Source of the DNA: Victivallales bacterium
Lineage (GTDB): Bacteria; Verrucomicrobiota; Lentisphaeria; Victivallales; UBA1829
Length of the DNA stretch: 64,000 nt
NCBI GenBank assembly: GCA_045114235.1
Contig: JBGUKB010000078.1
Span: 1,200-65,199, forward strand
Direction of reading: 5' to 3'
Shown: positions 12,001-41,085 of the stretch, one piece after another
Position numbering within the stretch: the stretch's first letter is position 1
Layout: each line of letters begins with the position of its first letter
Notes under the pieces: generated by a model
Told to the model about the DNA's origin: nothing
Seen by the model: only the letters and a program-made list of their open reading frames with translations
Databases searched by the model: none
Translations under genes and position numbers: made by a program

Positions 12001-15000
12001 TTGCCGGTCGGGGTGATGATCGTGACCGTGGAGGCGTCGAGCGTGACCTTGGTGGGATCGACGTCGAGGACCAGCGTGGAGCCGGAGCCTTCTTCCGCGT
12101 CGATGACGATCTTGGTTTCGGCGGGCATGGTGCCGGTGAGGGTCAGGACCGCGTCGGCGTCGATCGTGAGCGTGGAGGCGGAGGCGATCGTGTCGATCGT
12201 GCTGTCGTCGTCGATGTAGATGGTCTTCGCGGTGACAGAGCCGACCACGGAGTCTTCGATCTCGACGTCGAATCCGGCTGCGACAACGTCCATGCCGGTA
12301 TTGTCGCCGGTGATGACGATCTTGGCGCCGGCCTTGGCGGCCGCGACTGCATCCGCGACGGACGCGAACGCGTTCTTGCCGAAGACGAGCGTATCGCCGT
12401 CGACGACGATCTTCTTGTCCGCGGAGAAGGAAGTGTTCACATAGAGCTCGTCGAGGGAGTAGATCGTGACGGAGGTCTCGGTCTTCACGTATTCGTAGAG
12501 GCCGGCCTTCGCGCCTTCGAGCTTGATGGTCCAGTCGTTCACGCCGCCTTCGGCGCGGACGATCTCGTTGGCGCCGGTCAGGCCGCCGACGTTGACCGTG
12601 ATGGTCTTCGTGCCGGAGGTCGTGAGGTTGCCGGAGACGACGAGGTTGGAGGTGTCGGACATGTAGATGCTGCCGCTGAGGGTCAGGGCGTTCTCGAGCT
12701 CGGGTTTGGCCTTGTTCGTGAACGCGACTTCCGAGTCGGCGTTGATCGTGATGTTGCCGTCGATCACGGCGCCGCCGGTGACGTACAGCTGGGAGGTCGT
12801 CAGGTCCTTGACGCCGGTGAGGGAACCGGCGCTGATGAAGCCGGTGTTGACCAGATTGGCATTGTTCAGGATCAGGCCGCCGTTCTGCGTGAAGACGCCG
12901 TCTCTGGACGTGGCGCGGAAGAACAGGTCGCCTTCGTTCTTGAAGGTGCCGCCAACGGAAATGTCACCGAGGGCAGTGATTCTGCCGTCGTTGAAGAAGT
13001 TGCCGCCGATGATCGCAGCGCTGGTCATGACGAAGTCGTAGTTGTTCAGGTTGCCGACCAGGAGCAGCGTGACGTTGTTGGGCTCGGCGAGATTGCGGTA
13101 CGTGCCGAGCACGCCGTAGTTGTCGAGGTTGGCGGCGCTGATGACGCCGGCGTTGATGCCGCGGCGGTTCAGGATGTCGCCGTTGATGATAAGAGTGTTC
13201 TCCAGGGAGACTTCACTCTTGTCCGTGCCGTTCGAAACGTTCAGCGTACCGCCGGTGACGTTCAGGGCAGTGAAGTTCTCGACGGAGCCGACCTTCGCGT
13301 TGCCTTCGACGTTCAGGATGCGGGCGGTGCCCTTCGTGCCGCCGTCGAGAGCGCCGGTCACGGACGCGCCGTAGATCAGGCCGTAGAACGTGCCGTTGCT
13401 GCGCTGTGCGACCGTGCCGCCCTTGAGGGTGACGTCGACCGCGCCGGTGATGTTCGCGCCGTTGCCGATGGAGACGTCGGAGAACAGGCCGCCGGCGAGG
13501 GTCATGTCGACCGTGCCGATGGTGTTGTTGCTGGCGCCGACGACGAGCTTGCCCGCGCCGCCGGTGATGCTGGCTTCGATCGCGCCGACCTTGTTGGCGA
13601 CGCCGGTGATGACCGCTTCTTCGCCTTCGCCTTCGACGGTGGCGTCGGCGATGATCAGGTTCGAAGCGACGACTGCATCGCTGTAGACGAGTTTGTCACG
13701 ATCGGCCGCGGCGGAGGAGAGACCAGCCACGTAGTTGCCGACGGTGGAGCCGGCGAGCTTGATGGAGGTGCCCTGTCCTTCGGCGTACACGTTTCCGATC
13801 ATGTTGCCGCCGGTCAGGTCGTTCGTGGCCTTGCTCGCGCCGCCGTAGACGTTGCCGATGGTGGAGCTCTTGATCGTGACGGTGCCCGCGAAGCCTTCCT
13901 GGTCGGCAAGCTTCACGTCGCCGATCACGCTGTTGCCGATGGAAATATCGGCAGCGCCGACGGCCGCGCCGGTCAGGTCGATGGTGCCGATGCCGGCGAC
14001 GTCTTCGTCCCCGGAATAGTCAATCGAGAGCTTCGCAGCGCCGGTGACATTGCCGACCTTGATCGCATTAATATTATTTGTATAAGTGGCGGAGAAGTTC
14101 GCGGAAGCGACATCGGCAGCGGTATCGCCGAGGACGATGTCTTTTCCGTTGAGGTCGATGTTGTGGACATCGCTGCCGGAGAACGAAGTCACGTAGTCCT
14201 TCGTCACGACGTCCGCATCGAACGTGGTCGGCTCGACGGACGTGTCGTCGCCGTAGACCATGATCGTGGTCGTGGCCTTGTCGGTGACATGGGCCTGCGC
14301 CGAGGCAACGGAGACGTAGCCCTTCGGGCCGAGTTCGGTGGGCTGGTCGTCAGCGTAGTTGCTGTTCACCAGCAGGACGGTGCTCGTGGCGTTGTGGAGG
14401 ACCAGCTTGTCGCCGGAGAGCTCGTAGTAACCCGGGAAAATACCCTTGGTATATTCGTGATCGCCGACCACGATGGCCAGGTCATCGGAAATGCCGGTGT
14501 CGGAAAGACCGGAAACGAGCACGGTGTCGGGCTCGGAGAGGTCGCCGATCACATAGATCGTGGAAATATTGGCGAGAGAAGCGACATTGACGGTGGAACC
14601 GAGCGCGATGCTCAGTTTGCCGCCGTCGGCCACGGTGATGCTGTTGGCGCGGACTTTGGCGCCGGCATTGACCGTGACGTTTTTGAAGCGGTCGATGGTG
14701 CCGGTGACGGTCTGGATGTCGGACGCGCCGAGGATCAGGTCGAACGTATCCACTTCCGGAGCGTCGCCGTTGCCGTTGCCGCGGATGTTGGCCGCGACCG
14801 ATCCGGCGACTGTGAGCTTGTAGGAGCCGGTCCAGTCGCCCGGGTTGTTGAAGTAGCCGATGTTGATGTCGCCGCCGACGCTGGATCCGGAGATGACGAC
14901 GTTGTAGTTGGCCGCGACGGTCTTGTTGCCCTGGCCGCTGTCGGTCTGGACGCCGCGGAAGGAACCGCTCACGGTCACGTTGGAAACGGTGCCGATCACG

Positions 15001-15983: not shown

Positions 15984-16507
15984 CGTTTTGCCTCCTGCGG
16001 TTTCCCGCGGTCGTTCCGTTCGCTTCTCCGGCTCCGGGGTTCGGTTCCCGGAGCCGCTTCTCCGAACCGCCTGTGCGGCTCTTCGATCGAGTTCAAGTCA
16101 GTGAAAATCGTATCCGTTTGCCTGAATCCGGTTCAGGCGCCGCCTGCGCGGCATCCATCGTTCCGTCCGGCGTCTTTTCCGTCCGTCTCCGCCCTGCCTC
16201 ACCCGGCTTCCGCCGAGTTCAGTTCAAGTTCGGATGGCCGGCCTTCCGCCGTCCGGGGTTCCCGGCTTACCACCCGGTCCCGGCCTCCTGTTCCGCTCGT
16301 CTGCTGTTCGTTTCGTTCATGGTTCGTATCTCGTTTCGGTTTGTTCGTTCGTTTCTGTTCAACTCTGCCCTGTGCCGTCCTGTGCCGTTCGTCCTGTCCG
16401 TTTCCGTCCGTTCTTCCGTTCGTTGTTTCCGTCTTGTATCCTGTTCGATTTTTTGAGCTTGTTTCTTGTGTTTTGCCCGCTCACAGGCGTTTTATTTATA
16501 TATTTCT
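15984..16507 (-). other. Long untranslated leader or ncRNA-like region, strongly T(U)-depleted on the minus strand and GGA-rich
   Basis: The plus strand is almost free of A (about 11 A in 16261-16500). About 30 GGA triplets occur on the minus strand in ~460 nt, clustered as ACGGA/CAGGA. No credible ORF. All three plus frames are open only because stop codons need A. Confidence 0.4.
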
Positions 16508-16514
16508 CGCGTAT

Positions 16515-16542
16515 ATTATACACGATATACAGCGAAATTCAA
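16515..16542 (-). promoter_or_regulatory. Candidate sigma70-type promoter for the leader and giant gene (TTGAAT-N16-TATAAT)
   Basis: Minus strand TTGAAT (16542-16537), 16-nt spacer, perfect TATAAT (16520-16515). It sits at the edge of the AT-rich intergenic block. Confidence 0.3.
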
Positions 16543-16785
16543 ATGTACTTTTTGTCGAAAAACATGTCTTTTTTAGAAATAATCGCTTTATGCTTAAAAA
16601 ATCCGAAAAGGCGGCGCAATTACGGGAAGACCTTTCCGCATGATTCGAAAACGCCGTGAGACGTGCTTTCGGGACACGGCGCATACCACCGGTCCTGCAA
16701 GGTGGCAAAGCGACATCCGAGACAACATCCCGGATGGGCATAAAAACGCCCGCAAAAGAACCCCCCGAAAACGGCGAAGAACAGG

Positions 16786-16816
16786 ATAAGACTTATAGGT
16801 CATATAAGACTTATAG
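16786..16816. repeat. Tandem direct repeat ATAAGACTTATAG x2 (period 18 nt). Each copy contains the palindrome ATAAG-A-CTTAT. Operator-like
   Basis: Exact 13-nt copies at 16786-16798 and 16804-16816, separated by GTCAT, in the AT-rich divergent intergenic region. Confidence 0.6.
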
Positions 16817-17325
16817 TTTTATTTTGTTTCGCGATTTTCATTCTGTGTTTTGCAAAGAAGATAATAGCAGTTTTTTTACAAAAAGAACAACAGTTTAATA
16901 TCGGCACAAAGAATGCACAAACAAGACGAACGAAAATTAACAAATCATACAACCGGAAACCATCTGTTTTTCATGCAAAAGACACTACATGAAACGAAAC
17001 AAAACTTTTCTACATTGTTTTGCTTTTAGTCATACTCTTTTTTTCGTGATTCCGTTTTATGATGACCGGATCATGGATCGGACGACACGAAACATGCTTT
17101 CCCCGGCTGATTTACCGATCGTCACGCGCCTTCGCGGCTGGCATCGCGCGAACAAATACTACATAAAAAAAAGCATAAAATACATTTCTTTTTTATAAGC
17201 GAGGTGATATATTATTTGGATTGCAGCACGCGGCCCTGTTCATTTCGAGCACGATTCGAACGGCCGCGGCACAGACTTGAACAAGCTTCCCATAACACTA
17301 TCAACCCCGAACAGGAGACAACATC

Positions 17326-18759: not shown

Positions 18760-18895
18760 GGAGGACAAGTCCTCCACTGCAGTAGTGCGCGGCTCTGCTC
18801 GCGCACACTGTAAGCAGTGACGAAACAGTGCCGGGCTCCGCTCCGGCACACTGCAAGCAGTGACGAAGCAGTGCCCGGCTCCGCTCGGGCACAGA
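18760..18895 (+). repeat. 3'-end multi-hairpin repeat element (family copy 1): hairpin A plus three tandem ~43-nt C/B hairpin units
   Basis: Starts 1 nt after the TAA stop. Hairpin A is GGAGGAC-AA-GTCCTCC. Then come GTGCGCG-GCTCTGCT-CGCGCAC, GTGCCGG-GCTCCGCT-CCGGCAC and GTGCCCG-GCTCCGCT-CGGGCAC, interleaved with CACTG-YAAG-CAGTG. Confidence 0.7.
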
Positions 18896-25100: not shown

Positions 25101-26238
25101 GCTTCTGGTTGAAGATCTCGAACGCGAGGTGGCAGCACGGATATCCGGGGCATTTTTCGGGGATCTCGGCCAGTTCCGGCACATGGGCGATCTCCGGGAT
25201 CGCGCAGGCGTGCCTTTCCTTCAGGATCGGCCGCATGTAGCCTACCATCTTTTCCCTCAGTTCGGGCGTGAGCTTCGGCAGTTTGTCCGCCATGTCCGGA
25301 CGCACGAACTCCGTCTGCTTATCCAGCTCGAGGTTCAGCCACACCATCCGGCAGCTGTCGAACTCGCGGAAGATGATCTCGGTGATGATCGACAGGACCT
25401 TGTTCATGTCGGTCTCATTCTGCGTCTTCTTCAGGATCTCGGCGTTCGCCGCCTCGTATTTGTGGAAGAATGCTTCCGCCGTGATGTCCTCGACCGTGCC
25501 GAGGATCAGGCGACGCCCGGACGGGTCGACGTACAGGTTCTCCACGAGGTGCACGAACTGCGGGAACCCCTTGTCGTCCAGCAGCGCCAGACGGAAATTC
25601 TGCGTATGCTCCGGGGCCTGCACGGTCTTTTCGGAGAAGCCGCGCCATTGTTCGGCGACCGGAGCGGGAAGGAAGTCGGCGGCCTTCTTGCCGCGCACCC
25701 CCATCTGATCGACGCGGAATATCTGCGCGAAGCTGCGGTTCGCACGCATGAAACGGAAATCGTCGTCGACCTCCTGCACGTATACGCCGAGCGGGATGTT
25801 GTTCGCAATGGTCCGGAAAAGACTCCCCTCGTTTCCGGCCGCGTTCCAGCCGGAGTTGTCGGCCTGCGCGGACTGGACGGAGAAGAAGAGGACGCCCGCC
25901 TCCGTGCCGTCGGAAAGGACCGCGGGTTGCATGACGGATTCGTACCACGCGCCGGAGGATTCGGCGCAGATGTGGAATATGAGATCGAATCCGGGCAGGG
26001 AAACGCGGCATGCGCCGTCGCCGGATTTCACGGCGTCAGCCGGGATCAGTTCGTCAAGAGACTGTCCGGCAAGCCCGCCGGAACCCCGCTCGAACGCCTT
26101 TTCCGCAGCAGGATTCCCGTACAGGATCGCACCGTCGCGCCCGACGACGATCACGCCGTCCGACAGGTGGCAGTATACAGCATCAAAAGCCCCGGAAGCG
26201 AGGCGGATTTGTCCATTGTTCGTTTGTTTCCCGGCCAT
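22132..26238 (-). CDS. Hybrid sensor histidine kinase / response regulator with multiple PAS/GAF sensor domains (1368 aa)
   Basis: H-box SHDIRTPLNSI, N/G boxes NLIGNAVKFT, DTGIGI and GGTGLGLSI, C-terminal receiver (LLVDDNELN...DVWMPNMSG...LKP). Confidence 0.9.
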   Translation of the reverse strand: MAGKQTNNGQIRLASGAFDAVYCHLSDGVIVVGRDGAILYGNPAAEKAFERGSGGLAGQSLDELIPADAVKSGDGACRVSLPGFDLIFHICAESSGAWYESVMQPAVLSDGTEAGVLFFSVQSAQADNSGWNAAGNEGSLFRTIANNIPLGVYVQEVDDDFRFMRANRSFAQIFRVDQMGVRGKKAADFLPAPVAEQWRGFSEKTVQAPEHTQNFRLALLDDKGFPQFVHLVENLYVDPSGRRLILGTVEDITAEAFFHKYEAANAEILKKTQNETDMNKVLSIITEIIFREFDSCRMVWLNLELDKQTEFVRPDMADKLPKLTPELREKMVGYMRPILKERHACAIPEIAHVPELAEIPEKCPGYPCCHLAFEIFNQKRYIGTMLIQFTRRMPFPAYNNEPRLMMVDTFAAILYRIREQQNLADSIRLLEQIIDTLPMSFFVKDAGNDFRYSLCNRKFCRMIGRTRDEVIGKTDYDIFPKVVADKLTSEHADAMNSKDLIHTDVDEVVPGVGWHVFEKWLLPFRTDQGGKMLVGIAHDVTEERKLHGIEKFKMNILAYFTDHPDIREFCDYLAGQMLDVLHCDRVLLLPQKSSDGLRLTNEWTRPGVDRLGKHDPDCPILKQCRERRKEPVLAFEDAEALYADSPDVGCHSKSAIIARVTINGRFWGGLAVHYVNYRTHFSPADLQLVQAAASLLSMAVERGIAQREIQRREQENQLLIDNTIIPVAMFDGFGRLLRCNKPYQESIATLEREVKPQLLQAIMNGLRTSSIQRKINGKLWQIDAHGVTDDSNKLSYIFMFAVDITESDRRMRRQEATSACMEAILSETEEDSRAFQEVIRVIAGYFSANGGNFIHFKPDGVELLATWGFEDSGQPFTPSIMKVRELTSFDEEWIARLEGCDVTVDNDLQNIPLEDPNLAQTIRATGMGTRSSFKLMHGDRVWGAVSIYFKDPWRSFSQTDYEMLGNFQHTANMMLLKYELTENLKKERDKAVSAEKAKSFFFSCVSHDIRTPLNSIIGFSELLQQGGLPPEKATEYLGNIIFSGNTLMQLINDVLDFASLDAGKLKLYPAMCDFRRLAESVLTIVGDAARNKSLYLKLDAPDEIPWVKVDAQRVSQILFNLIGNAVKFTEKGGVTLHLRFTPDAGGKTGLLAFTVQDTGIGIDRSHFSELMQPFVRIRTKNQVGGTGLGLSICNLMAAKMGGKVRIDSELGVGSSFTVEIPHIEYQLEAPAELEQQGGTHALPADVNLSLLLVDDNELNLKVLEALCRKLGVRNIGSATSGRDALTMMNDTRYDAVLTDVWMPNMSGPELAAEIRRNPMWYDLPVYALTADVEMCKSTDPAPFTGILLKPLRTENIAKLLLKISAAKK

Positions 26239-26543
26239 GGTTTTCGCGCGCCTTATACAAAGTATTTAAAACACAAAATAATCTTTTACTTTATCACGGA
26301 TTCTCTAAAAAGTCAAGCGCTGAAAAATGTTCCCCTTGGCATAAGAAACAGGCATTTTCAGCGTGCCGCAGTTCAATTATTTTTTCCTTATTTTTCTACG
26401 CGCATCCGGTTGATTTTTCTTTCATCGGCTGTATGTTATACGAAGACGGCAGACCGCCGCACTCTGCGGAAAATACGTCTGATATGCCCTGCAATCTCCA
26501 CCTCATACCGGCACGCGCCGGGAAAGGATCCGTCCCCGTGAAC

Positions 26544-28484
26544 ATGAAATCATTCACCATCGGAATCGCTCTCGCGGCGGCCGCCGCGCTGGCCGCCTGC
26601 ACGCAGAACAAATGGTCCGCGCCCCCGGGAGGGTATTACAATTATGTCTACATAACCCCTCATTGGGGGACACAAGCTTACGATGTAAACCTCAATCCGC
26701 TCGCCACACGGTCGGACCTCCAGAAGGCCGCCGTCGACATCCTCCGCCCCCTGCTCCCGTACTACTCGGACGGGAAGGCGCGGCTGCATCAGGGCTACAC
26801 CGGCGCGAGCTACCCGGACAGCACCGCGGAGATGGAGGCGTTCTCACGCCCGGTATGGGCGCTCGGTCCGCTCTGGGCGGGCGGCGGAGGCAGGGATCCC
26901 GAGCTCTGGAACACCTTCATGCGCGGGCTGATCTCGGGCACCGATCCGGCGAATCCCGAGTATTGGGGCAACGTCGGCGACTACGACCAGAAGATCGTCG
27001 AAATGGCGTCGATCGGGCTGGCGCTGGCGATCGCGCCGGAACAAGTCTGGGAACCGCTGACGAAGGAACAGCAGGACAACGTGTACAACTGGCTGAACAA
27101 CGCGAACCTCCGCAAAGCATGGCCGTGCAACTGGGAGATGTTCCGCGTGGTCGTGAACCTCGGATTCCGCCGCGTCGGGCGTCCGTACGACAAACAATCG
27201 GTCGAATCCGCGCTGAACGCCATGGAACCGTGGTATCTCGGCAACGGCTGGTACACCGACGGCGAAAACGCACACGCCGACCACTACAACTCCTGGGGCA
27301 TGCACTTCTACTGCCTGCTGTACGCCGCGCTGATGAAGGACGAGGACCCCGTCCGCGCCGAGCTCTATAAGGAGCGCGCACGCATTTTCGCGCAGGACTA
27401 CATGTATTATTTCGGCGGCGACGGCTCCGCGATCCCGTACGGACGCAGCCTCGCCTACCGGTTCGCCGAAGCGGCGTTCTGGGCGGCATACGCCTACGCG
27501 GACGTCGGCGGGATCGAGCCGGGCGTGGTGAAGGGGCTCTTCCTGCGCAACATGCGGAAATGGCTCAGCCGTCCGATCTTCGACGCGGGCGGCGTCCTGA
27601 CGGTCGGCTACGCGTACCCGAACATGAGCATGGCGGAGAGCTACAACGGGTTCGGCTCGGTCTACTGGGGCATGAAGTCGTTCCTCGTGCTCGCCCTGCC
27701 CGAGGACCATCCGTTCTGGGCCGCCGAGGAACTTCCGATGCCGGAGCTGCCCGCCTCGCGCCGCATGGATGGTCCCCACTTCATCGCCCAGCGCGACGGC
27801 GCGCACGCCGTGTTCTTCGCCGCCGGGCAGAAGCCGCGCATGCAGCACACGCACGGACAGGCGAAATACGAGAAATTCGCCTATTCCAATCTGTACGGAT
27901 TCGGCGTCCCGAAGGGTCCCTACGGACTCGCGCAGATCGTCCCGGACTCCATGCTCGCGATCACCGACGTCGGCAGCGACCGCTACGCCGTCAAACGTGA
28001 CACGAAGGACTACGAGGTCACCGACGACTGGATCCGCACCGACTGGTCCCCGCTCATGGGCGTCACGATCCGCACCTGGATCATCCCCGCCCTGCCCTGG
28101 CATGTCCGCATCCACGAGATCACCACCGACCGCACGCTCCAGACCTTCGACGGCGGATTCGCGTTCCCCGCCGACGGCGTCTCCGTGAAGACCGAACGCA
28201 AGTCCGTTTTCGTCTCGCAGTCCGGCGGCATGTCCTGCGGAGCCGTCGACCTCTCCGGCGGCCGCACAGCAATCAACCAGGGCACGGAGCCGAACACGAA
28301 CCTGATCCTGCCGCGCGCGACGATCCCCGGTCTTCAGGGCAACATCCCGAAAGGCACCTCCACGCTCGTTTCGGCGTTCTTCTGCGGAAGCGGCGAACGC
28401 GGCGCAACACCCTCCGTGACGACAACCGATGACATCTATACGGTACATATTGGCGGCAAGACCGTCGTGATTCAGCGCAAATAA
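26544..28484 (+). CDS. DUF2264-family lipoprotein (glycan-utilisation associated)
   Basis: Lipobox MKSFTIGIALAAAAALAAC. The body resembles DUF2264 proteins (NGWYTDGENAHADHYNSWGMHFY). The track start at 26010 is an upstream extension across non-coding AT-rich DNA. Confidence 0.7.
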   Translation: MKSFTIGIALAAAAALAACTQNKWSAPPGGYYNYVYITPHWGTQAYDVNLNPLATRSDLQKAAVDILRPLLPYYSDGKARLHQGYTGASYPDSTAEMEAFSRPVWALGPLWAGGGGRDPELWNTFMRGLISGTDPANPEYWGNVGDYDQKIVEMASIGLALAIAPEQVWEPLTKEQQDNVYNWLNNANLRKAWPCNWEMFRVVVNLGFRRVGRPYDKQSVESALNAMEPWYLGNGWYTDGENAHADHYNSWGMHFYCLLYAALMKDEDPVRAELYKERARIFAQDYMYYFGGDGSAIPYGRSLAYRFAEAAFWAAYAYADVGGIEPGVVKGLFLRNMRKWLSRPIFDAGGVLTVGYAYPNMSMAESYNGFGSVYWGMKSFLVLALPEDHPFWAAEELPMPELPASRRMDGPHFIAQRDGAHAVFFAAGQKPRMQHTHGQAKYEKFAYSNLYGFGVPKGPYGLAQIVPDSMLAITDVGSDRYAVKRDTKDYEVTDDWIRTDWSPLMGVTIRTWIIPALPWHVRIHEITTDRTLQTFDGGFAFPADGVSVKTERKSVFVSQSGGMSCGAVDLSGGRTAINQGTEPNTNLILPRATIPGLQGNIPKGTSTLVSAFFCGSGERGATPSVTTTDDIYTVHIGGKTVVIQRK

Positions 28485-28612
28485 AATCACGATTTTTATT
28501 TAAGGTTTTTACGTTTTTCCGCTTGATTCTTCCCGTTTTCTGTGTATATTAGGCTTTTGACGGAACAAACATCCCGAGTTAAGCTCAACACCAACCCCCA
28601 AGGAACTACAAA

Positions 28613-30592
28613 ATGAACCGTAAAACGACCGGAAGCATGCTCCTCGCCCTGATCGCCATGACCATCGGCGCGACCGCCTGCCAGTCCGCCCCCGTACCGG
28701 AAGCCGATCCCGAGGCCTCCGTCAAGGGCACCATGACCGTGAACATGAATGACAAGCTCAAGATCTCCGACACCATGTTCGGTATCTTCTTCGAGGACAT
28801 CAACTACGGCGCGGACGGCGGCCTGTACGCCGAGCTCGTGGCGAACCGCGACTTCGAATGTACCCCGGCCGACGCGCGCGGCTGGAACTCGAAGAAATTC
28901 TGGGTCGCGGACGGCTCCATCAAGTTCGATGTCGCAGTCGACAATCCGATCCACGCGAACAATCCGCATTACGGCGTGATCTCCGTCGACGCGGTCGGCG
29001 CGCGCCTCCTCAACGAAGGCTTCGGCGGATTCCGCTACGAAAAGGGCGCGAAGTACGACTTCTCCATGTTCGCGCGCCAGCAGGGCGACAAACCCGTCAA
29101 GATCGAGGTCGGCCTCCTCTCCGACACCGGCGCGGTCCTCGCCTCCAAGACGGTCGACGTGAAGTCCAAGAAATGGGACAAGGTCTCCGTCACCCTCACC
29201 GCCTCCGCCGGCAACTCCACCGCCGACGCCTGCGGCAAGTTCTATCTGAAGCCCCTTACCGCCGGCGCGCCCGTCGCCGTCGACATGGTCTCCCTCTTCC
29301 CGCAGGACACCTTCAAGGGCCGCAAGAACGGCCTCCGCAAGGACCTCGCCCAGACGCTCGCCGACCTGAAGCCGCAGTTCGTCCGCTTCCCCGGCGGCTG
29401 CGTGGCGCACGGCAACAGCTGGCAGGACGACTGCTACTACTGGAAGGACTCCGTGGGCGAGCTCGAAGAACGCAAGCCGATCAAGAACCGCTGGGGCTAC
29501 CACCAGACCCGCGGCCTCGGCTACTACGAATACTTCCTCTTCTGCGAAGACATCGGCGCGTACGCGCTCCCGATCATCACCGTCGGCGTCGACTGCCAGT
29601 TCACCGGCGGCCAGCAGGCTGTCCCGATGGACCAGATGGGCCGCATCGTCCAGGACGCCCTCGACCTCGTCGAGTTCGCCAACGGCTCCACCGACACCAA
29701 GTGGGGCGCGCTCCGCGCGAAGATGGGCCATCCGAAGCCGTTCGGACTGAAGTATATCGGCCTCGGCAACGAGGAACAGATCACCGACGCCTTCGAACAG
29801 CGCTTCAAAATGGTCAACGACGCCCTCGTCGCCAAGTATCCCGACATCGTCGTGGTCGGCACCGTCGGCCCCAGCGCCGAAGGACGCGACTACGACCGCG
29901 GCTGGAGATTCGCCCGTCAGGAAAAGATTCCGATCGTCGACGAGCATTTCTACAGGGATCCGAACTGGTTCGTGAACAGCGCCCAGCACCGTTACGACAG
30001 CTACGACCGCAACGGCCCGAAAGTCTACGCCGGCGAATACGCCGCCCACGCGCAGGGCAATCCGCGTCCGAACACCATCGAGACCGCCCTCGACGAGGCG
30101 ATCTTCCTGACCGGCGTCGAACGCAACGGCGACGTCGTCCTCATGTCCTCCTACGCGCCGCTCCTCGGCAAGCACGGCAACATGCAGTGGACCCCGAACA
30201 TGATCTACTTCTCAAACACCAAGGTCGACAAGACCACGACCTACGAAGTCCAGAAGCTCTTCGGCACGAACGCCGGCACGAACTACCTCAAGAACTCCCT
30301 TGACTTCGGCAGCGCGCTCGACCGCCGCCAGACCCTCCGGGTCGCCGCATCCGCCGTCCAGACCAAGGACGGAGACACCGTCCTGAAGTACGTCAACACC
30401 CTCGACCAGGCCGTCTCCATCACCGTCACGCTCGACAACAGCAAGGGCATCCCCGCCTCCGCGAAGCGCACCGTCCTCACCGGACCCGCCTTCACCGGAA
30501 AGGAATACACCCTTACCAACAACTATGTCAAGCTCGGCGAGAAGTTCATCGTGAACCTCCCCGCCCACTCCATGACCGTCATCCGCTTCTGA
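28613..30592 (+). CDS. GH51 alpha-L-arabinofuranosidase, lipoprotein
   Basis: FFEDINYGADGGLYAELVANRDFE, RFPGGC and GLGNEE motifs typical of GH51. Lipobox IGATAC. Confidence 0.85.
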   Translation: MNRKTTGSMLLALIAMTIGATACQSAPVPEADPEASVKGTMTVNMNDKLKISDTMFGIFFEDINYGADGGLYAELVANRDFECTPADARGWNSKKFWVADGSIKFDVAVDNPIHANNPHYGVISVDAVGARLLNEGFGGFRYEKGAKYDFSMFARQQGDKPVKIEVGLLSDTGAVLASKTVDVKSKKWDKVSVTLTASAGNSTADACGKFYLKPLTAGAPVAVDMVSLFPQDTFKGRKNGLRKDLAQTLADLKPQFVRFPGGCVAHGNSWQDDCYYWKDSVGELEERKPIKNRWGYHQTRGLGYYEYFLFCEDIGAYALPIITVGVDCQFTGGQQAVPMDQMGRIVQDALDLVEFANGSTDTKWGALRAKMGHPKPFGLKYIGLGNEEQITDAFEQRFKMVNDALVAKYPDIVVVGTVGPSAEGRDYDRGWRFARQEKIPIVDEHFYRDPNWFVNSAQHRYDSYDRNGPKVYAGEYAAHAQGNPRPNTIETALDEAIFLTGVERNGDVVLMSSYAPLLGKHGNMQWTPNMIYFSNTKVDKTTTYEVQKLFGTNAGTNYLKNSLDFGSALDRRQTLRVAASAVQTKDGDTVLKYVNTLDQAVSITVTLDNSKGIPASAKRTVLTGPAFTGKEYTLTNNYVKLGEKFIVNLPAHSMTVIRF

Positions 30593-35658: not shown

Positions 35659-36522
35659 TCAGGCGTTCGCCTTGTTCTTTTTCGCCTTTTCGGCGTCCCG
35701 TGCCTGTTTCCGGCGGATCCTTGCGGCAAGTTCCTCTTCCACGGCACGGCACAGCGTGTCCAGCTCAAACCGTTTGACCTTCGTAGCCTCAAGATAGACC
35801 TGCAGATGCGCGCGGCGTTCCTCCGCCGTGAACGGGTAGAACCGCAGGAATTCGCCGAGGTCCTGCACGATGCGCCGTTTCAGTCCCCGGCCCCACGCGC
35901 GGCGGCACCGGGCGACGTCGATCCAGCGGATTTCCAGCTGATTCCCCTCCGCGTCCGGCTCCGGCAGCCTGCGCCAGAGCTCGTTCATCGGCGTGAATCC
36001 GCCGTGGAAGAACCCGGCGTCGTGCAGGCGCGCGAGGAGGACGAAATTGCCGCGCGTGAATTCGTCGCGCAACGCCGTCTCGTGCGACAGCGACTCGAAG
36101 AAATGCCGTCCGTCCAGGAACCCGTCGGCGAACTCCGTGACGAGGAATGCGCTGCGGATGCGGAAAAAACCGCGGTCCTCGCCGACTGCGACCAGTTTCA
36201 CCAGCGGCAGCCCCACGTGCGCCAGCCGTTTGAACTTGTACGCCTCCTTGACCGCCTGCGTCCACGAAAACCCGTACGGCAGCCACCGGATATTCCTGCC
36301 GCACTTGTACGCCAGATCCAGCCCGGACGCCGTCTTCAGGCGCAGGACATATTTGTTTTTCGTCCGCCAGAGCACCTCCGAACCGGAACCGGGATCCGCG
36401 CCGGGCGGCCCGGCACGCAGGACATCGCGCAACCCGGCGGCGTCCCTGCGGATCCAGCACCACGGGCGCAACGGGGTCCATTCGAACCCGGTAAATCTGT
36501 CGGAGACCGTTTCTTTTCGCAT
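35659..36522 (-). CDS. Lipopolysaccharide-kinase (Kdo/WaaP/InaA) family-like protein. The catalytic-loop Asp is apparently replaced
   Basis: The overall pattern matches the LPS-kinase family (LVKLVAVGE, LVTEF, RLHDAGFFHGGFTPMNEL, IDVAR). The usual HxD..N reads HGGFTPMN here. Confidence 0.55.
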   Translation of the reverse strand: MRKETVSDRFTGFEWTPLRPWCWIRRDAAGLRDVLRAGPPGADPGSGSEVLWRTKNKYVLRLKTASGLDLAYKCGRNIRWLPYGFSWTQAVKEAYKFKRLAHVGLPLVKLVAVGEDRGFFRIRSAFLVTEFADGFLDGRHFFESLSHETALRDEFTRGNFVLLARLHDAGFFHGGFTPMNELWRRLPEPDAEGNQLEIRWIDVARCRRAWGRGLKRRIVQDLGEFLRFYPFTAEERRAHLQVYLEATKVKRFELDTLCRAVEEELAARIRRKQARDAEKAKKNKANA

Positions 36523-36687
36523 AAAGCTGTTAGGTTCCTATTATAATTCGCAAATTTTACACATGAGTAATGTACTCCATTTTCCCGTTTTTTCAAGTCC
36601 GGAACGACCTGATTTTTCTCCGCGGTTCACTCTGCCGGATTCAGGAGTATCCTCCTGACAGCGTTTGCTTGTATTTTCCTGTTTTCG

Positions 36688-36696
36688 TGCTACATT
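36688..36696 (+). promoter_or_regulatory. Candidate extended -10 promoter in the CRISPR leader (TGcTACATT)
   Basis: TG 36688-36689 and TACATT 36691-36696, about 29 nt upstream of the first repeat, in a comparatively AT-rich leader. Confidence 0.3.
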
Positions 36697-36724
36697 ATTT
36701 CCGGTGTTCTTTGAAAAGGAGTTT

Positions 36725-37749
36725 TCCCGAGCTTGTAGAGTTCAAACGGTACACTTGATTAACGATTCCTTTCTTAACGAGGCTTGCGAGGCTGGGGCTT
36801 GTAGAGTTCAAACGGTACACTTGATTAGATGCTTGTCGGTGGCGTGGAGTTTCAGAGCTGGGGCTTGTAGAGTTCAAACGGTACACTTGATTGATCGATG
36901 CCGGCGCTCCGGAGAGATGACGGCTGGGGCTTGTAGAGTTCAAACGGTACACTTGATTCCAATGCGCCGGGATAATCGGCATAAACCCGCTGGGGCTTGT
37001 AGAGTTCAAACGGTACACTTGATTTCTCCGCGGTTGTCCCTGCGAAAAACGAGGCTGGGGCTTGTAGAGTTCAAACGGTACACTTGATTCATGGGCGAAC
37101 TTTGCCACGTTTTCGAGAGGCTGGGGCTTGTAGAGTTCAAACGGTACACTTGATTCGACGTCTCCTGCTACAGAAAAAGCGACGGGCTGGGGCTTGTAGA
37201 GTTCAAACGGTACACTTGATTTCCGCGCTGCAGGGTATCCACCGCTACCGGCTGGGGCTTGTAGAGTTCAAACGGTACACTTGATTCATCCCGGATCGTT
37301 TTCCATCTACCCATAGGCTGGGGCTTGTAGAGTTCAAACGGTACACTTGATTTGCCGTTGTCCGCGCTGCGCAGGACGGCGGGCTGGGGCTTGTAGAGTT
37401 CAAACGGTACACTTGATTCAGGCGGCAGCGCACCGCAGGATCTCTCCGGCTGGGGCTTGTAGAGTTCAAACGGTACACTTGATTTGATCGGGAATCTTCC
37501 CGTGATGTGCGGCTGCTGGGGCTTGTAGAGTTCAAACGGTACACTTGATTGCCTCGTCTGGCACACCGTCGCGCAGCATGGCTGGGGCTTGTAGAGTTCA
37601 AACGGTACACTTGATTAAAGCGTGTTCGGACGGTGCGCCTCCATTTGCTGGGGCTTGTAGAGTTCAAACGGTACACTTGATTTTCCACGCGCGTCGAGGT
37701 AGATAATGTATTCGCTGGGACTTGTAGAGTCTAAACAGAATGACAAACG
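36725..37749 (+). CRISPR. CRISPR array of 16 repeats and 15 unique spacers. The repeat is GCTGGGGCTTGTAGAGTTCAAACGGTACACTTGATT (36 nt)
   Basis: Hand-mapped. Repeats start at 36725, 36791, 36857, 36923, 36989, 37054, 37120, 37186, 37251, 37317, 37383, 37449, 37515, 37581, 37647 and 37714. Spacers are 29-31 nt. The first repeat differs in its first 6 nt and the last repeat is degenerate in its 3' half. Orientation is assigned from tracrRNA complementarity. Confidence 0.97.
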
Positions 37750-37755
37750 ATGCGG

Positions 37756-40700
37756 TCAGTCGTTGGCACGCTGCAATTCTCCGAAGATGTTCATGCGGCA
37801 CTTCTGCAGATTTCCCTTAAAAGCGCTTGAAACGTAAAGACGGAACCAGAGTTTTGCCGCTTTCAACTCGTCCTTTTTCCTTGCCTCATTCAGGGGAACA
37901 ATATAAAACTCCGGCAGGGATATTCCCCTCACGATGCAGAGATATTCCTTTCCGTCCTTGTTCCACTTCACGATGTCGCCCTTTTTGAGGGAGAATTTGA
38001 ACTTGAGGCCGGGACGCTCCTTTTCGAAGACAGGCTGACCGTGTTTCACCAGCTGGACGGCGTCGAGCAGCGTGACGATCTCGCCGACCCATTTGACCTC
38101 CTCGCCCTTCTCATTCAGCACGGCGAAAATCGGCAGGACATAGTTGGAGCCGGTCTTGACGTTGCGGACGCCGTCTCCGGACCCGATCGTAATGGTTTTA
38201 AGGTTCTGTTTCACGCGCACCTTTTTGATCACGTTGACGGGGTTTCCTTCGGAATCGCGGAAAACAGGGAGATTCGCATCGTCGCAGAACATCTTGAGGT
38301 CGCTTTTGGACACATCCTCCGGCTTGGACCTGCCGAGTTTCTCCAGCACGAGCGCGCGGACGCGGGGATCGACGATCTTCGCGACGTCGCCCGGCTCGAT
38401 GCTGGCGAGGCTCACGCGGACATGGCGCTCCGTGCCGCCGAAATCCTTCCCATAGAATGTATCCTCATGCAGCGAGCCGCGGAGCTTGTTGACGACATGG
38501 TGGGAAACGGCGGCGGATTCGAGGCGCTGTTTCGCCTCGGAGTAGAGGGTCGAATCGATGATCGGAGTATTGGTTTCATGGAGTTTGCGGCGCTGTTCGG
38601 GCGACATGGACGCGATCTTCTGCACCATGCCCGGCGTGGTCAGGGCGATGGTCACGGCGTCGATGGCGTGGTGGCGGTGGTCTGTGCGGACTTTCTCGCC
38701 CTCGCCGAGCAGATCGTTCCCGCCCCAGGCGCGCCGGATCAGGGCGGTGGCGCCGCCGCTGGTCGCGAAGATGCGCCGTTTGCCGTCCTTATCGACCATG
38801 CCGCCGTAGAGCAGGCCGAGATACTGCATGGCGATGCGGCTGGCATAGCGCGTGTCATTCAGGTTGCGCTCCATGAAATCCTGTTCGTCGATCTTATCCC
38901 GTTTGAAAAGGTCGAGCTTGTAGGCGGCATACGGCCCTTTGAACTGCGCGACGCGGGCGAGGATCTGTTTGTACTGCTCGCCGGAGTATGCCTCGAACGG
39001 CGTGCGGTTGTTCTTCGCGCTGTTCGCGGAGGCGTCGCAGAGCGTCTTATTTCGGAACGAATCGTCGTAGGAACGCGAGTACGGGATGATGTGCTCGATG
39101 TGGATGTCCTTTCCATACAGAAGTTCACGAATATCTCGAATCTTCCGCCCTGTGTAGGGACAGACGAAATTGCATTCTTCGGCGAGCATCACCTTCAGGA
39201 TGTCGTTGCGCGACGGCTTTTCGATCCCGGCCTCCGCGAGGATGCGCTCGGCGATCTTCTGCCGCTCCTTTTCCCTCTGATTGTTCTGTCGGGTGATGGT
39301 CTCTTTCTGTTTGTTGGACGTCTTCAGGTCGCGCGCGAGCTCGATGCGGATGGCGTTCGGCTTGCCGTGGCGGGCGATGATCGCGTTCACGACCGTGCGC
39401 AGTTCCGTGATCACGCGGTGGACGAGCGGATTCCTGATTTCAATGCTGCAATCTTTGCTGTCGAAAACGGGGAGAAAATCGTGCGCCGCGCCGACCTGTT
39501 TCGGATAAAGGAGCTTTTTGATTGTCGGAAGGGGTTCTCCCGTTTCAAGACTGGGCAGCATCTCCCGGAGCGCGTGAAGCGAATACGCGCAGTAGGAATC
39601 CGGAAGCATGACCTTCATGGCGGTCTCGACCTGAAGCGGAGAAAGTTTCCAGTGTTCGCGGAGGCGTTTCTCCAGGACAGTGTCTTTTTCGATGGAGTCA
39701 AGGTCGTGGAAGAAAGCGTCCTGTTCGGCTGCAGGCATGGCGGCGGCCCTGTCCGCGCCGAAGACGCGCACGAGCGCCGCGTGGCGTTCGTTGCCGTAGA
39801 CGTCCTTACCCTCGTCGCCGAGCGTGAAGCTTTCCCCTTTGGCAAGTCCGATGACCTTTCCGAGATTCTTCAGCGTGATCGTGCCGCGGACAGTGAACTT
39901 ATCCGAATAGCCGTTCAGGAAGGCGACGGCCTTTCCGCGTTCTTCCTCGGTGAGCGGCCGCTCGGCGTCGCCCTTCCGCACGCGGAGATTGCTCACGGTC
40001 GTGTAGATGCGGAAGAGCTGGGCCTCCTCCTTCGCCATGGAGCAGCGGCGGTATTCGGGATAAATCTCGCATTTCCCGACGAGCCCTTTGCAGGATTTGA
40101 GCTTGTGTTGAAAGAAAATCGCCTCGTAAAGCTTTTTCTCCAAATCCGGGGAGACCAATGCGCGCTGCGCCTCGCAGATCTTGCGGAACTCGTCCTCGTA
40201 CATGGCGCGGTCCGTGTAGCGCTTGCGGATGCGCTCCTTGTTCGGGTCAATCGTGCAGAAATACTCGGCGATCGTCCGGGCGTGGGTCTGATCCATCTCG
40301 GATTTCAGTTTCGCGATGCCATCTTTCACCACGCCGGTTTCCTTGTCTTTCAAATCGAGCTTGCGGTTGCTCCGGTATCCGCGGCGCTGGGCGAAATGAT
40401 AGATCGCGCGTCCGAACTCTTCCTTCGTGAGCGGACGGTCGAGCGCGAGCTTGCGGTAGAGATACGGGGCGATATGGGCGGCGTGTTCGCGTTCGGCCTC
40501 GGGAAGCGTCTGCACAAGTTTCCGGTCGAGCGCGACGAAGAAATCCGGCGTGAAGGGGTCGGGGAGCATCCCGTTTTCCGTCAGGATGCGCTTCAGATCC
40601 TGCTTGCGGTCGCGACGGCGGCTGTACTGGCGGCGCAACGCCTTTTTCAGGCGGCGTTCTGCGGCACGCGAGGTGCCTTTTCCGCGGGAGATCGCTTCCA

Positions 40701-40836
40701 GACCATCGCTGTCAAGTCCCTGTTCGAAGATGCGTGAACCCCACGCTTCCAAATTGAAAGTGTCCCCGTATTCGGAGATCAGCGCCCAGCCGATGGAGGC
40801 GACGCCCAAATCCAGTCCCAGCGTGTAGTACGGCAT
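37756..40836 (-). CDS. cas9: Cas9 endonuclease, compact (1026 aa), type II-C-like
   Basis: RuvC-I YTLGLDLGVASIGWA, HNH DIHIEHIIPYSRSYDDSFRNKTL...NNRTP, RuvC-III HHAIDAVTIA. It lies beside the array and tracrRNA. Confidence 0.97.
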   Translation of the reverse strand: MPYYTLGLDLGVASIGWALISEYGDTFNLEAWGSRIFEQGLDSDGLEAISRGKGTSRAAERRLKKALRRQYSRRRDRKQDLKRILTENGMLPDPFTPDFFVALDRKLVQTLPEAEREHAAHIAPYLYRKLALDRPLTKEEFGRAIYHFAQRRGYRSNRKLDLKDKETGVVKDGIAKLKSEMDQTHARTIAEYFCTIDPNKERIRKRYTDRAMYEDEFRKICEAQRALVSPDLEKKLYEAIFFQHKLKSCKGLVGKCEIYPEYRRCSMAKEEAQLFRIYTTVSNLRVRKGDAERPLTEEERGKAVAFLNGYSDKFTVRGTITLKNLGKVIGLAKGESFTLGDEGKDVYGNERHAALVRVFGADRAAAMPAAEQDAFFHDLDSIEKDTVLEKRLREHWKLSPLQVETAMKVMLPDSYCAYSLHALREMLPSLETGEPLPTIKKLLYPKQVGAAHDFLPVFDSKDCSIEIRNPLVHRVITELRTVVNAIIARHGKPNAIRIELARDLKTSNKQKETITRQNNQREKERQKIAERILAEAGIEKPSRNDILKVMLAEECNFVCPYTGRKIRDIRELLYGKDIHIEHIIPYSRSYDDSFRNKTLCDASANSAKNNRTPFEAYSGEQYKQILARVAQFKGPYAAYKLDLFKRDKIDEQDFMERNLNDTRYASRIAMQYLGLLYGGMVDKDGKRRIFATSGGATALIRRAWGGNDLLGEGEKVRTDHRHHAIDAVTIALTTPGMVQKIASMSPEQRRKLHETNTPIIDSTLYSEAKQRLESAAVSHHVVNKLRGSLHEDTFYGKDFGGTERHVRVSLASIEPGDVAKIVDPRVRALVLEKLGRSKPEDVSKSDLKMFCDDANLPVFRDSEGNPVNVIKKVRVKQNLKTITIGSGDGVRNVKTGSNYVLPIFAVLNEKGEEVKWVGEIVTLLDAVQLVKHGQPVFEKERPGLKFKFSLKKGDIVKWNKDGKEYLCIVRGISLPEFYIVPLNEARKKDELKAAKLWFRLYVSSAFKGNLQKCRMNIFGELQRAND

Positions 40837-40943
40837 TTTGAACAGCCCTTTCCAAGATTCTTTGTCTAAAAAACGTCTGATATTTTTACAATTATAAATA
40901 ACACCTCAAGACGGAAAAATCAAGCGATTTTCCCGTCTTTCAT

Positions 40944-40972
40944 TTGACTTTTCCTTTTGACAATGCTATAAT
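40944..40972 (+). promoter_or_regulatory. tracrRNA promoter TTGACT-N17-TATAAT
   Basis: TTGACT 40944-40949, 17-nt spacer, TATAAT 40967-40972, divergent from cas9. Confidence 0.6.
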
Positions 40973-40978
40973 AATACC

Positions 40979-41057
40979 ACTCTACAAGTCCTGGTAAAGG
41001 ATTGTTGGTCACTTCCTGCGGGAATACCACGAGGCGGCTTCAATAGCCGCTTTTTTT
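40979..41057 (+). ncRNA. tracrRNA (~79 nt)
   Basis: The anti-repeat ACUCUACAAGUCCUGGU pairs with repeat nt 1-17 (17 bp including 4 G.U). It is followed by AAAGG (nexus-like), internal hairpins, and the terminator GCGGCTTCAATAGCCGC plus T7 (41034-41057). Confidence 0.75.
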
Positions 41058-41085
41058 GTGGCTTCGCGCAGGAGTGAGAAACGCT

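What the first reader, a model, noticed from the sequence alone, without database searches (positions are those of the whole stretch)
36600..41060. Minimal type II CRISPR locus: cas9 + tracrRNA + 15-spacer array, no cas1/cas2/csn2/cas4 in the 64 kb window
A complete effector module is present.
- Effector: Cas9 has intact RuvC and HNH catalytic motifs. There is a promoter- and terminator-bounded tracrRNA and 16 well-conserved repeats with 15 unique 29-31-nt spacers.
- Flanks: both flanks are housekeeping genes. One side has the LPS-kinase-like gene, ogt, yolD and the Y-family polymerase. The other has aroG-pheA and carB. Every ORF of Cas1 or Cas2 size in the window is accounted for.
- Interpretation: a diverse, intact array implies adaptation happened. 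The adaptation genes therefore act in trans from elsewhere, were lost recently, or spacer uptake uses unknown machinery.
- Size: at 1026 aa the Cas9 is in the compact, genome-editing-relevant size class.
Basis: partly seen in the sequence, partly recalled or inferred. Interest (0 to 1): 0.65.

Follow-up and report, generated by a model that had tools for sequence, protein, structure and literature searches.

The report
Cas9 locus that lost cas1-cas2
This is an ordinary type II-C CRISPR-Cas9 locus from a rumen Lentisphaeria bacterium that keeps cas9, its tracrRNA and 15 spacers but lost the spacer-acquisition genes cas1 and cas2 through a roughly 1.4-kb deletion.

Summary
The window has an intact 1026-aa Cas9 (37756-40836, minus strand). 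It has a tracrRNA bounded by a promoter and a terminator (about 40975-41057, plus strand). It has a 16-repeat, 15-spacer array (36725-37749). No cas1, cas2, csn2 or cas4 occurs anywhere in the 64 kb.

It is not a special minimal system. It is a deletion derivative of a canonical type II-C locus.
- **Orthologous locus:** a yak-rumen Lentisphaeria MAG (L001) has 88% Cas9 identity, 93% nucleotide identity in the neighbouring aroG-pheA gene and an identical repeat. It carries cas9-cas1-cas2, a conserved ~190-nt region, then the array.
- **Junction in the window:** the cas1 start that overlaps the end of cas9 survives for about 7 nt past the cas9 stop. It then runs directly into a half-degenerate repeat.
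- **Other losses:** two other close lineages (L007, L005) also lack cas1-cas2, each with a different junction. In total 3 of 15 lineages in this clade lack them, so loss is recurrent.
- **Cas9 integrity:** Cas9 shows no relaxed constraint (dN/dS 0.12-0.21).
- **Spacer targets:** no protospacers were found.

Cas9-only type II-C loci are already described in Campylobacter. Whether cas1-cas2 exist elsewhere in this genome could not be tested. Verdict: a new member of a known kind, of modest interest.

The parts
36669..36696 (+). Putative pre-crRNA promoter: -35 TTGTAT, 16-nt spacer, extended -10 TGCTACATT. It lies about 30 nt upstream of the cas-distal repeat.
   Evidence: The block GCTTG...TGCTAnATT is conserved in the same flank of L003, L005, L007 and L018. 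It points in the crRNA sense predicted from the tracrRNA. Function is inferred.
36725..37749 (+). CRISPR array: 16 repeats (GCTGGGGCTTGTAGAGTTCAAACGGTACACTTGATT) and 15 unique spacers of 29-31 nt. The crRNA sense is the plus strand, convergent with cas9.
   Evidence: The identical repeat occurs in L001, L003, L007, L014, L017 and L023.
36725..36760 (+). Cas-distal terminal repeat. Its first 6 nt are diverged (TCCCGA instead of GCTGGG).
   Evidence: The same pattern is seen in L003, L005 and L007. This repeat follows no spacer, so its tracrRNA-pairing 5' part is dispensable (inference).
37714..37749 (+). Cas9-proximal terminal repeat, with nt 1-17 kept (one G-to-A change) and the 3' half degenerate. 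It forms the right side of the deletion junction.
   Evidence: In L001-L003 the corresponding repeat is perfect and abuts a conserved ~190-nt region.
37750..37769 (-). Remnant of the cas1 5' end (GTG start overlapping the cas9 3' end, MPTTDR...).
   Evidence: GTGCCAACGACTGACCGCATC matches the cas1 starts of L001-L003. Homology ends about 7 nt after the cas9 stop.
37756..40836 (-). cas9, 1026 aa, type II-C.
   Evidence: dN/dS against relatives is 0.12-0.21.
40944..40972 (+). tracrRNA promoter: TTGACT, 17 nt, TG-extended TATAAT.
   Evidence: 11/12 consensus match. It is conserved upstream of the anti-repeat in relatives.
40975..41057 (+). tracrRNA: anti-repeat at 40979-40995, two internal hairpins, and a terminator at 41031-41057. 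It is divergent from cas9.
   Evidence: Pairs with repeat nt 1-17. A repeat-GAAA-tracr chimera folds at -50.6 kcal/mol, z = -6.2. In an alignment of 14 loci, 6 of 19 pairs show compensatory changes. L018 has a matched A-to-G / U-to-C change in anti-repeat and repeat.

Best explanation
This is a type II-C CRISPR-Cas9 locus of a rumen Lentisphaeria bacterium.

**Deletion.** A single deletion of about 1.4 kb removed three things: cas1 from about codon 8 onward, all of cas2, and the conserved ~190-nt cas2-array intergenic region together with part of the adjoining repeat.

**What remains.** The remaining parts form a complete interference module.
- cas9 is transcribed on the minus strand.
- The tracrRNA is transcribed divergently from its own strong promoter.
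- The array is transcribed on the plus strand, towards the 3' end of cas9. The likely source is a conserved promoter in the cas-distal flank.

**How it would work.** Each spacer is followed by a repeat whose first 17 nt pair with the tracrRNA. All 15 spacers can therefore give crRNA:tracrRNA guides for Cas9 cleavage of matching DNA.

**Consequence.** The spacers were acquired before the deletion. The array is now most likely a frozen memory.

**Shown:** the parts, their integrity, the deletion relative to orthologous loci, and the repeat:anti-repeat pairing. **Inferred:** transcription, processing, cleavage, and the inability to acquire new spacers.
For: **Canonical architecture in relatives.**
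- Relatives carry cas9-cas1-cas2 followed by the array: L001-L004, L009-L014, L016-L020, L023 and L026-L028.
- L001 is orthologous to the window: 93% nucleotide identity over 2368 nt of the tracr/aroG-pheA flank, 88% Cas9 identity and an identical repeat.

**Junction.**
- The cas1 start is retained and then runs directly into a degenerate repeat.
- An independent Logan assembly (L006, SRR25030060) has the identical junction.

**Other losses.**
- L007/L008 (two samples) and L005 also lack cas1-cas2, each with a different junction.
- All three cas1/2-less lineages nest among cas1/2-positive lineages in the Cas9 tree.

**Effector integrity.**
- Catalytic motifs are present.
- dN/dS is 0.12-0.21, as in cas1/2-positive pairs.
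- 14 of 16 repeats are identical.
- The tracrRNA structure is supported by covariation.

**Orientation.** An array transcribed opposite to the cas genes is the arrangement reported for N. meningitidis and C. jejuni (PMC3737331).
Against: - Only 64 kb of the genome is visible, so cas1-cas2 elsewhere is not excluded.
- The cas1 remnant beyond the cas9 stop is only 7 nt (6/7 identical to L001). The exact breakpoints are therefore uncertain.
- 'Recent' is relative. dS to the nearest cas1/2-positive relative is 0.38, so the loss is only bounded, not dated.
- No protospacer was found for any spacer, so no PAM can be derived and there is no evidence of current use. Searches covered phage genomes, plasmids and 8 exact scans of IMG/VR.
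- No expression data are available.
Confidence: 0.8

Rival explanations
1. The locus is still adaptive. Cas1-Cas2 encoded elsewhere in the genome, at a second CRISPR locus, would insert spacers into this array in trans.
For: - The array has 15 unique spacers and nearly perfect repeats.
- Cross-locus use of adaptation modules is documented for other types (PMC8092290).
- The cas-distal flank, with its conserved motifs, is intact.
Against: - No cas1 or cas2 lies in the 64 kb.
- The conserved ~190-nt region that abuts the perfect repeat in cas1/2-positive relatives is the likely leader, and it is deleted here.
- The spacer content is fully explained by acquisition before the deletion.
- The cas1/2-less L007 and L008 from two samples carry identical arrays.
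Confidence: 0.12
2. The missing cas1-cas2 is an assembly artefact, a mis-join or collapse at the repeats.
For: CRISPR arrays are hard to assemble from metagenomes, and several related contigs end inside arrays.
Against: - The junction lies in unique sequence: the cas1 start plus a uniquely degenerate repeat.
- It is reproduced exactly in an independent Logan contig.
- Two other lineages show cas1/2-less loci with different junctions. One of them was assembled independently from two samples.
Confidence: 0.03
3. The module is a decaying relic with no current function, or Cas9 has been repurposed for a non-immune role such as regulating host genes.
For: - Loss of the adaptation genes is a first step of decay.
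- L005 already has point mutations in 3 of 6 repeats.
- No targets were found for the spacers.
Against: - cas9 is intact, with dN/dS of 0.12-0.21.
- The tracrRNA promoter, anti-repeat and terminator are intact.
- 14 of 16 repeats are identical.
- No spacer matches the window or related loci, so self-targeting is not seen.
Confidence: 0.1

Closest known systems
Neisseria meningitidis type II-C CRISPR-Cas9 (Nme1Cas9)
   Same: - It is the closest solved Cas9 (E=1e-68 over residues 4-743).
- It shares the domain order and catalytic motifs, and is a compact Cas9.
- It has 36-nt repeats.
- Its array is transcribed opposite to the cas operon (PMC3737331).
- In relatives of the window locus the cas operon is only cas9-cas1-cas2.
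   Different: - The sequence similarity is distant, and the PAM-interacting C-terminus does not align.
- Here cas1-cas2 are deleted.
- The Nme repeat ends in an extended -10 promoter, and crRNAs start inside each spacer (PMC12477760). The repeat here ends in CTTGATT, without a good -10. A conserved promoter sits outside the array instead.
- More distant Lentisphaerae relatives (L009, L011) do have TGCTATATT or CTATATT at the repeat end.
Cas9-only type II-C loci of Campylobacter (C. coli clade 3; CampyICE1)
   Same: They have cas9, a tracrRNA and arrays without cas1 or cas2, and are presumed unable to acquire spacers (PMC4607530, PMC8743540).
   Different: - They belong to a different phylum and a different Cas9 clade.
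- CampyICE1 sits on a mobile element with three small arrays. The locus here is chromosomal, lies between housekeeping genes and holds 15 spacers.
- Here the deletion can be reconstructed against an orthologous intact locus.
Lentisphaerae/Victivallis type II-C Cas9 loci annotated in public MAGs
   Same: They share the same Cas9 family at 53-88% identity, the same tracrRNA architecture and the same or a related repeat.
   Different: Most of them (17 of 20 lineages examined) retain cas1-cas2 directly downstream of cas9.

Membership tests
Type II-C CRISPR-Cas | Cas9 effector with split RuvC and inserted HNH nuclease domains, catalytic residues intact | tested here: met
   Pfam HNH_4, RuvC_III and Cas9_a. 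TIGR01865 at 629 bits. Catalytic motifs align to NmeCas9.
Type II-C CRISPR-Cas | Cas9 groups with type II-C Cas9s rather than II-A or II-B | tested here: met
   The best solved matches are N. meningitidis Cas9 chains; SpCas9 matches only across the HNH region. All relatives with complete operons have cas9-cas1-cas2 only.
Type II-C CRISPR-Cas | cas1 and cas2 in the operon downstream of cas9 | tested here: not met
   Both are absent from the 64 kb by tblastn, HMM and Pfam. They are present in the orthologous L001 locus. This makes the window locus a degenerate, adaptation-less derivative.
Type II-C CRISPR-Cas | No csn2 (II-A) or cas4 (II-B) | tested here: met
   No such family appears among the window ORFs or in the gene tables of related loci.
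Type II-C CRISPR-Cas | tracrRNA with an anti-repeat complementary to the 5' part of the repeat, followed by hairpins and a terminator | tested here: met
   A 17-bp duplex with repeat nt 1-17. The structure is conserved, with 6 compensatory pairs. Repeat and anti-repeat covary in L018.
Type II-C CRISPR-Cas | Array transcribed opposite to the cas genes; repeat-embedded promoters, as in N. meningitidis | tested here: inconclusive
   The orientation opposite to cas9 follows from the strand and position of the anti-repeat, and from a conserved flank promoter. The repeat itself lacks a good -10, and the promoter scan found none in the array. No RNA data are available.
Type II-C CRISPR-Cas | RNA-guided, PAM-dependent dsDNA cleavage | not testable with these tools
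   No protospacers were found from which to infer a PAM. Biochemistry is needed.
Cas9-only (adaptation-less) type II-C loci | No cas1 or cas2 anywhere in the genome | not testable with these tools
   Only the 64-kb window is available. The genome and metagenome scan quotas returned relatives, not the rest of this MAG.

The most novel reading that the evidence does not exclude
Loss of cas1-cas2 may not be random decay in this rumen Lentisphaeria Cas9 clade. It could be a recurrently selected state. Three independent deletions (window, L007, L005) each start within about 10 nt of the cas9 stop codon. Each spares cas9, the tracrRNA and a multi-spacer array, and Cas9 stays under purifying selection. 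That pattern would suggest that a frozen-memory Cas9 is favoured, for example to avoid autoimmune spacer uptake. New spacers might then arrive only by recombination of array segments.
Probability: 0.2. Interest if true: 0.45.

Novelty: new member of a known kind. Interest (0 to 1): 0.3.

Why it matters
- **Clean example of module loss.** An intact orthologous locus exists, so this case shows how a CRISPR system sheds its adaptation module while keeping its effector. The three independent losses in one clade give a small data set on how often and where this happens.
- **Candidate genome-editing tool.** The Cas9 is a compact (1026 aa), uncharacterised type II-C orthologue, only distantly related to NmeCas9. 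Its guide RNA is now defined: repeat nt 1-27 joined to tracrRNA 40975-41057. It could therefore be tested as an editing tool.
- **Not surprising.** Neither point surprises a specialist. Cas9-only type II-C loci and compact type II-C Cas9s are both known.

Tried and rejected
**Spacer targets: nothing found.**
- 84 spacers (the 15 from the window plus those of five related arrays) were searched against INPHARED phages with blastn. No match.
- The window array was searched against PLSDB plasmids. Only chance-level hits appeared, at E=1.
- Eight exact scans of IMG/VR used six window spacers and two spacers from relatives. No match.
- No self-targets were found in the window or in 25 related loci.
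- No PAM could therefore be derived.

**Polarity of spacer acquisition: not informative.**
- Arrays of strains sharing the same Cas9 were compared. L018 and L019 differ only by an internal two-spacer deletion. L023, L024 and L025 are identical up to the contig ends.
- The text of PMC12477760 did not state which end of the N. meningitidis array is cas-proximal.

**Other checks that led nowhere.**
- Rfam found no family in the window.
- A 21-nt similarity between spacer 5 and the array flank (family D15) was judged to be chance. Its score matches many other two-copy families, and the register does not fit a relic repeat-spacer unit.
- The NCBI accession of the Cas9 could not be recovered.
- The JGI metagenome scan added only two close relatives.

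**Reading rejected.** I first considered that the crRNA lies on the cas9 strand. On that strand the anti-repeat would pair only with the 3' end of the repeat, and no terminator would follow it.
Full report
**What is there**

The window is 62% GC. Its closest relatives are Lentisphaeria MAGs from yak, sheep and goat rumen.

*cas9.* The minus strand carries a 1026-aa ORF at 37756-40836.
- It matches Pfam HNH_4, RuvC_III and Cas9_a, NCBIfam TIGR01865 (629 bits against a cut-off of 100) and the PADLOC Cas9 models.
- The closest solved structures are N. meningitidis Cas9 (E=1e-68 over residues 4-743).
- In that alignment the RuvC-I aspartate, RuvC-II glutamate, HNH histidine and asparagines, and the RuvC-III H/D are all present.

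*Array.* It begins six bases downstream of the cas9 stop.
- It has 16 repeats of 36 nt at 36725-37749 and 15 unique spacers of 29-31 nt.
- Fourteen repeats are identical.

*tracrRNA and strand assignment.* The only anti-repeat in the locus lies in the 250-nt gap upstream of cas9.
- Read on the plus strand it is preceded by TTGACT-17-TGCTATAAT (40944-40972), an 11/12 match and the best promoter-like site in the region.
- It is followed by two hairpins and by GAGGCGGCTTCAATAGCCGC plus seven T (41031-41057).
- The segment 40979-40995 pairs with nt 1-17 of the repeat when the repeat is read on the plus strand (GCTGGGGCTTGTAGAGTTCAAACGGTACACTTGATT). This is the geometry expected for a crRNA made of a spacer followed by the 5' part of the repeat.
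- A repeat(1-27)-GAAA-tracr chimera folds at -50.6 kcal/mol, z = -6.2 against shuffles.
- The same RNA is found upstream of cas9 in 13 related loci. In that alignment 6 of the 19 predicted pairs show compensatory changes.
- In L018 a change in the repeat (CTTGCAGAG) is matched by the complementary change in the anti-repeat.
- The array is therefore read on the plus strand, convergent with cas9. This is the arrangement shown by RNA-seq for N. meningitidis and C. jejuni (PMC3737331).

*Array promoter and terminal repeats.*
- A block GCTTG...TGCTAnATT lies 30-60 nt upstream of the cas-distal repeat and points into the array. In the window it is -35 TTGTAT and extended -10 TGCTACATT at 36669-36696. 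It is conserved in L003, L005, L007 and L018 even though their flanking genes differ.
- The two terminal repeats fit this reading. The cas-distal repeat follows no spacer and has lost only its tracr-pairing first 6 nt. The cas9-proximal repeat keeps nt 1-17 and has lost its 3' half.
- All 15 spacers are therefore followed by a usable handle.

**Are adaptation genes really absent?**

- I took Cas1 and Cas2 from related loci and searched the window by tblastn.
- I also searched the six-frame translation with profile HMMs built from 13 sequences of each protein. The best E-value across these searches was 1.6.
- Pfam on all 31 likely genes found only housekeeping or carbohydrate-active families.
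- The five ORFs without a Pfam family also have no PADLOC or NCBIfam hit.
On one side lie a Kdo-family kinase (35659-36522), Ogt and a Y-family polymerase. On the other lie a DAHP synthase-prephenate dehydratase fusion, carB, pyrG and carA.

**Why they are absent**

*Survey of relatives.* Gene tables and tblastn cover 20 distinct relatives.
- 17 have cas9, cas1 (overlapping the end of cas9) and cas2, followed by the array.
- Within the close clade (at least 74% Cas9 identity), 12 of 15 lineages have them.
- The three without are the window, L007/L008 and L005.

*The orthologous locus.* L001 is orthologous to the window locus.
- 93% nucleotide identity over 2368 nt covering the tracrRNA and the aroG-pheA gene.
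- 88% Cas9 identity.
- An identical repeat.
- In L001-L003 and L020, cas2 is followed by a conserved ~190-nt region that abuts a perfect repeat.

*The junction in the window.*
- The sequence GTGCCAACGACTGACCGCATC, the cas1 start overlapping the cas9 stop, is retained.
- About 7 nt after the stop it runs into the degenerate repeat.
- Relative to L001, about 1.44 kb is missing.
- An independent Logan assembly of SRR25030060 (L006) has exactly the same junction. An assembly artefact is therefore unlikely.

*The other two losses.*
- In L007, and in L008 from a second sample, a perfect repeat abuts the cas9 TGA.
- In L005 part of the post-cas2 region is retained before a degenerate repeat (alignment score 67 against a shuffle mean of 23).
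- In a neighbour-joining tree L005 groups with the cas1/2-positive L003 and L017. The window and L007 sit among L001, L002 and L020.
- The module was therefore lost at least twice by phylogeny, and three times judging by the junctions.

**Is the remaining module still maintained?**

- Pairwise dN/dS of cas9 is 0.12-0.21 for pairs that include the window. The cas1/2-less L005 and L007 fall in the same range as cas1/2-positive pairs (0.09-0.22 overall).
- The tracrRNA promoter, anti-repeat and terminator are intact.
- The repeats are homogeneous, in contrast to L005, where 3 of 6 repeats carry mutations.
- This fits either continued use or a recent loss. dS to L001 is 0.38, so timing is only bounded.
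- No spacers are shared between the window and other loci. L007 and L023 carry the same protospacer offset by 1 nt.
- No protospacer was found in phage, plasmid or IMG/VR searches. No spacer targets the window itself. Targets and PAM remain unknown.

**Comparison with what is known**

- By effector, tracrRNA, repeat length, array orientation, absence of csn2 and cas4, and the operons of its relatives, this is type II-C. It fails the cas1-cas2 criterion because of a deletion.
- Cas9-only type II-C loci have been described in C. coli clade 3 (PMC4607530) and on CampyICE1 (PMC8743540). The same question about spacer acquisition was raised there.
- One modest difference from the N. meningitidis paradigm of repeat-embedded promoters (PMC12477760) was seen.
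  - The repeat here ends in CTTGATT, without a good -10. More distant Lentisphaerae relatives end in TGCTATATT or CTATATT.
  - A TG-extended -10 is instead conserved just outside the array.
  - This suggests leader-driven transcription followed by tracrRNA/RNase III processing, but that is inference only.

**Verdict**

The explanation is a recent deletion of the adaptation module from a canonical type II-C locus, not unknown machinery. Adaptation in trans cannot be excluded without the rest of the genome. This is a new member of a known kind. The recurrent loss in this clade and the uncharacterised compact Cas9 give it modest interest.

Noticed in passing
window 1-15623 (minus strand): A giant ORF of more than 5207 aa runs off the window start. 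It looks coding (GC3 0.88) and is rich in G/T/A/V/D/S/N, with almost no Cys. It has no Pfam hit in either half and no internal repeats by self-BLAST. It is probably a giant surface or adhesin-like protein of unknown family.
   Followed up: partly
window 26238-28613: A 2.4-kb stretch holds only three small ORFs (79-95 aa). None has a Pfam, NCBIfam or PADLOC hit, and there is no Rfam match. Its content is unexplained.
   Followed up: partly
L017 and L023, just upstream of the cas-distal end of their arrays (crRNA sense): An anti-repeat-like sequence (TCTCTACAAGCTCCG / CTCTACAAGTCCCAAC) sits directly before the first full repeat and forms an inverted repeat with it. In L023 a further fossil repeat precedes it. 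This might be a leader-repeat hairpin or a second tracr-like element. It is absent from the window.
   Followed up: no
L020:5466-5501 and downstream: This relative is cas1/2-positive (87% Cas9 identity). It has the conserved leader-like region and a single repeat, then unrelated AT-rich sequence. Its array has collapsed or been interrupted, which is the converse of the window's state.
   Followed up: no
L007 spacer 2 and L023 spacer 17 (cas9-proximal numbering): The two arrays carry the same 29-nt protospacer sequence offset by 1 nt. This suggests independent acquisition from a common target. No match was found in IMG/VR.
   Followed up: partly
window 18784-18893 and 16001-17000: There is a 43-nt tandem repeat of 2.6 copies between two genes. 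A low-GC (49%) stretch lies upstream of the giant ORF.
   Followed up: no
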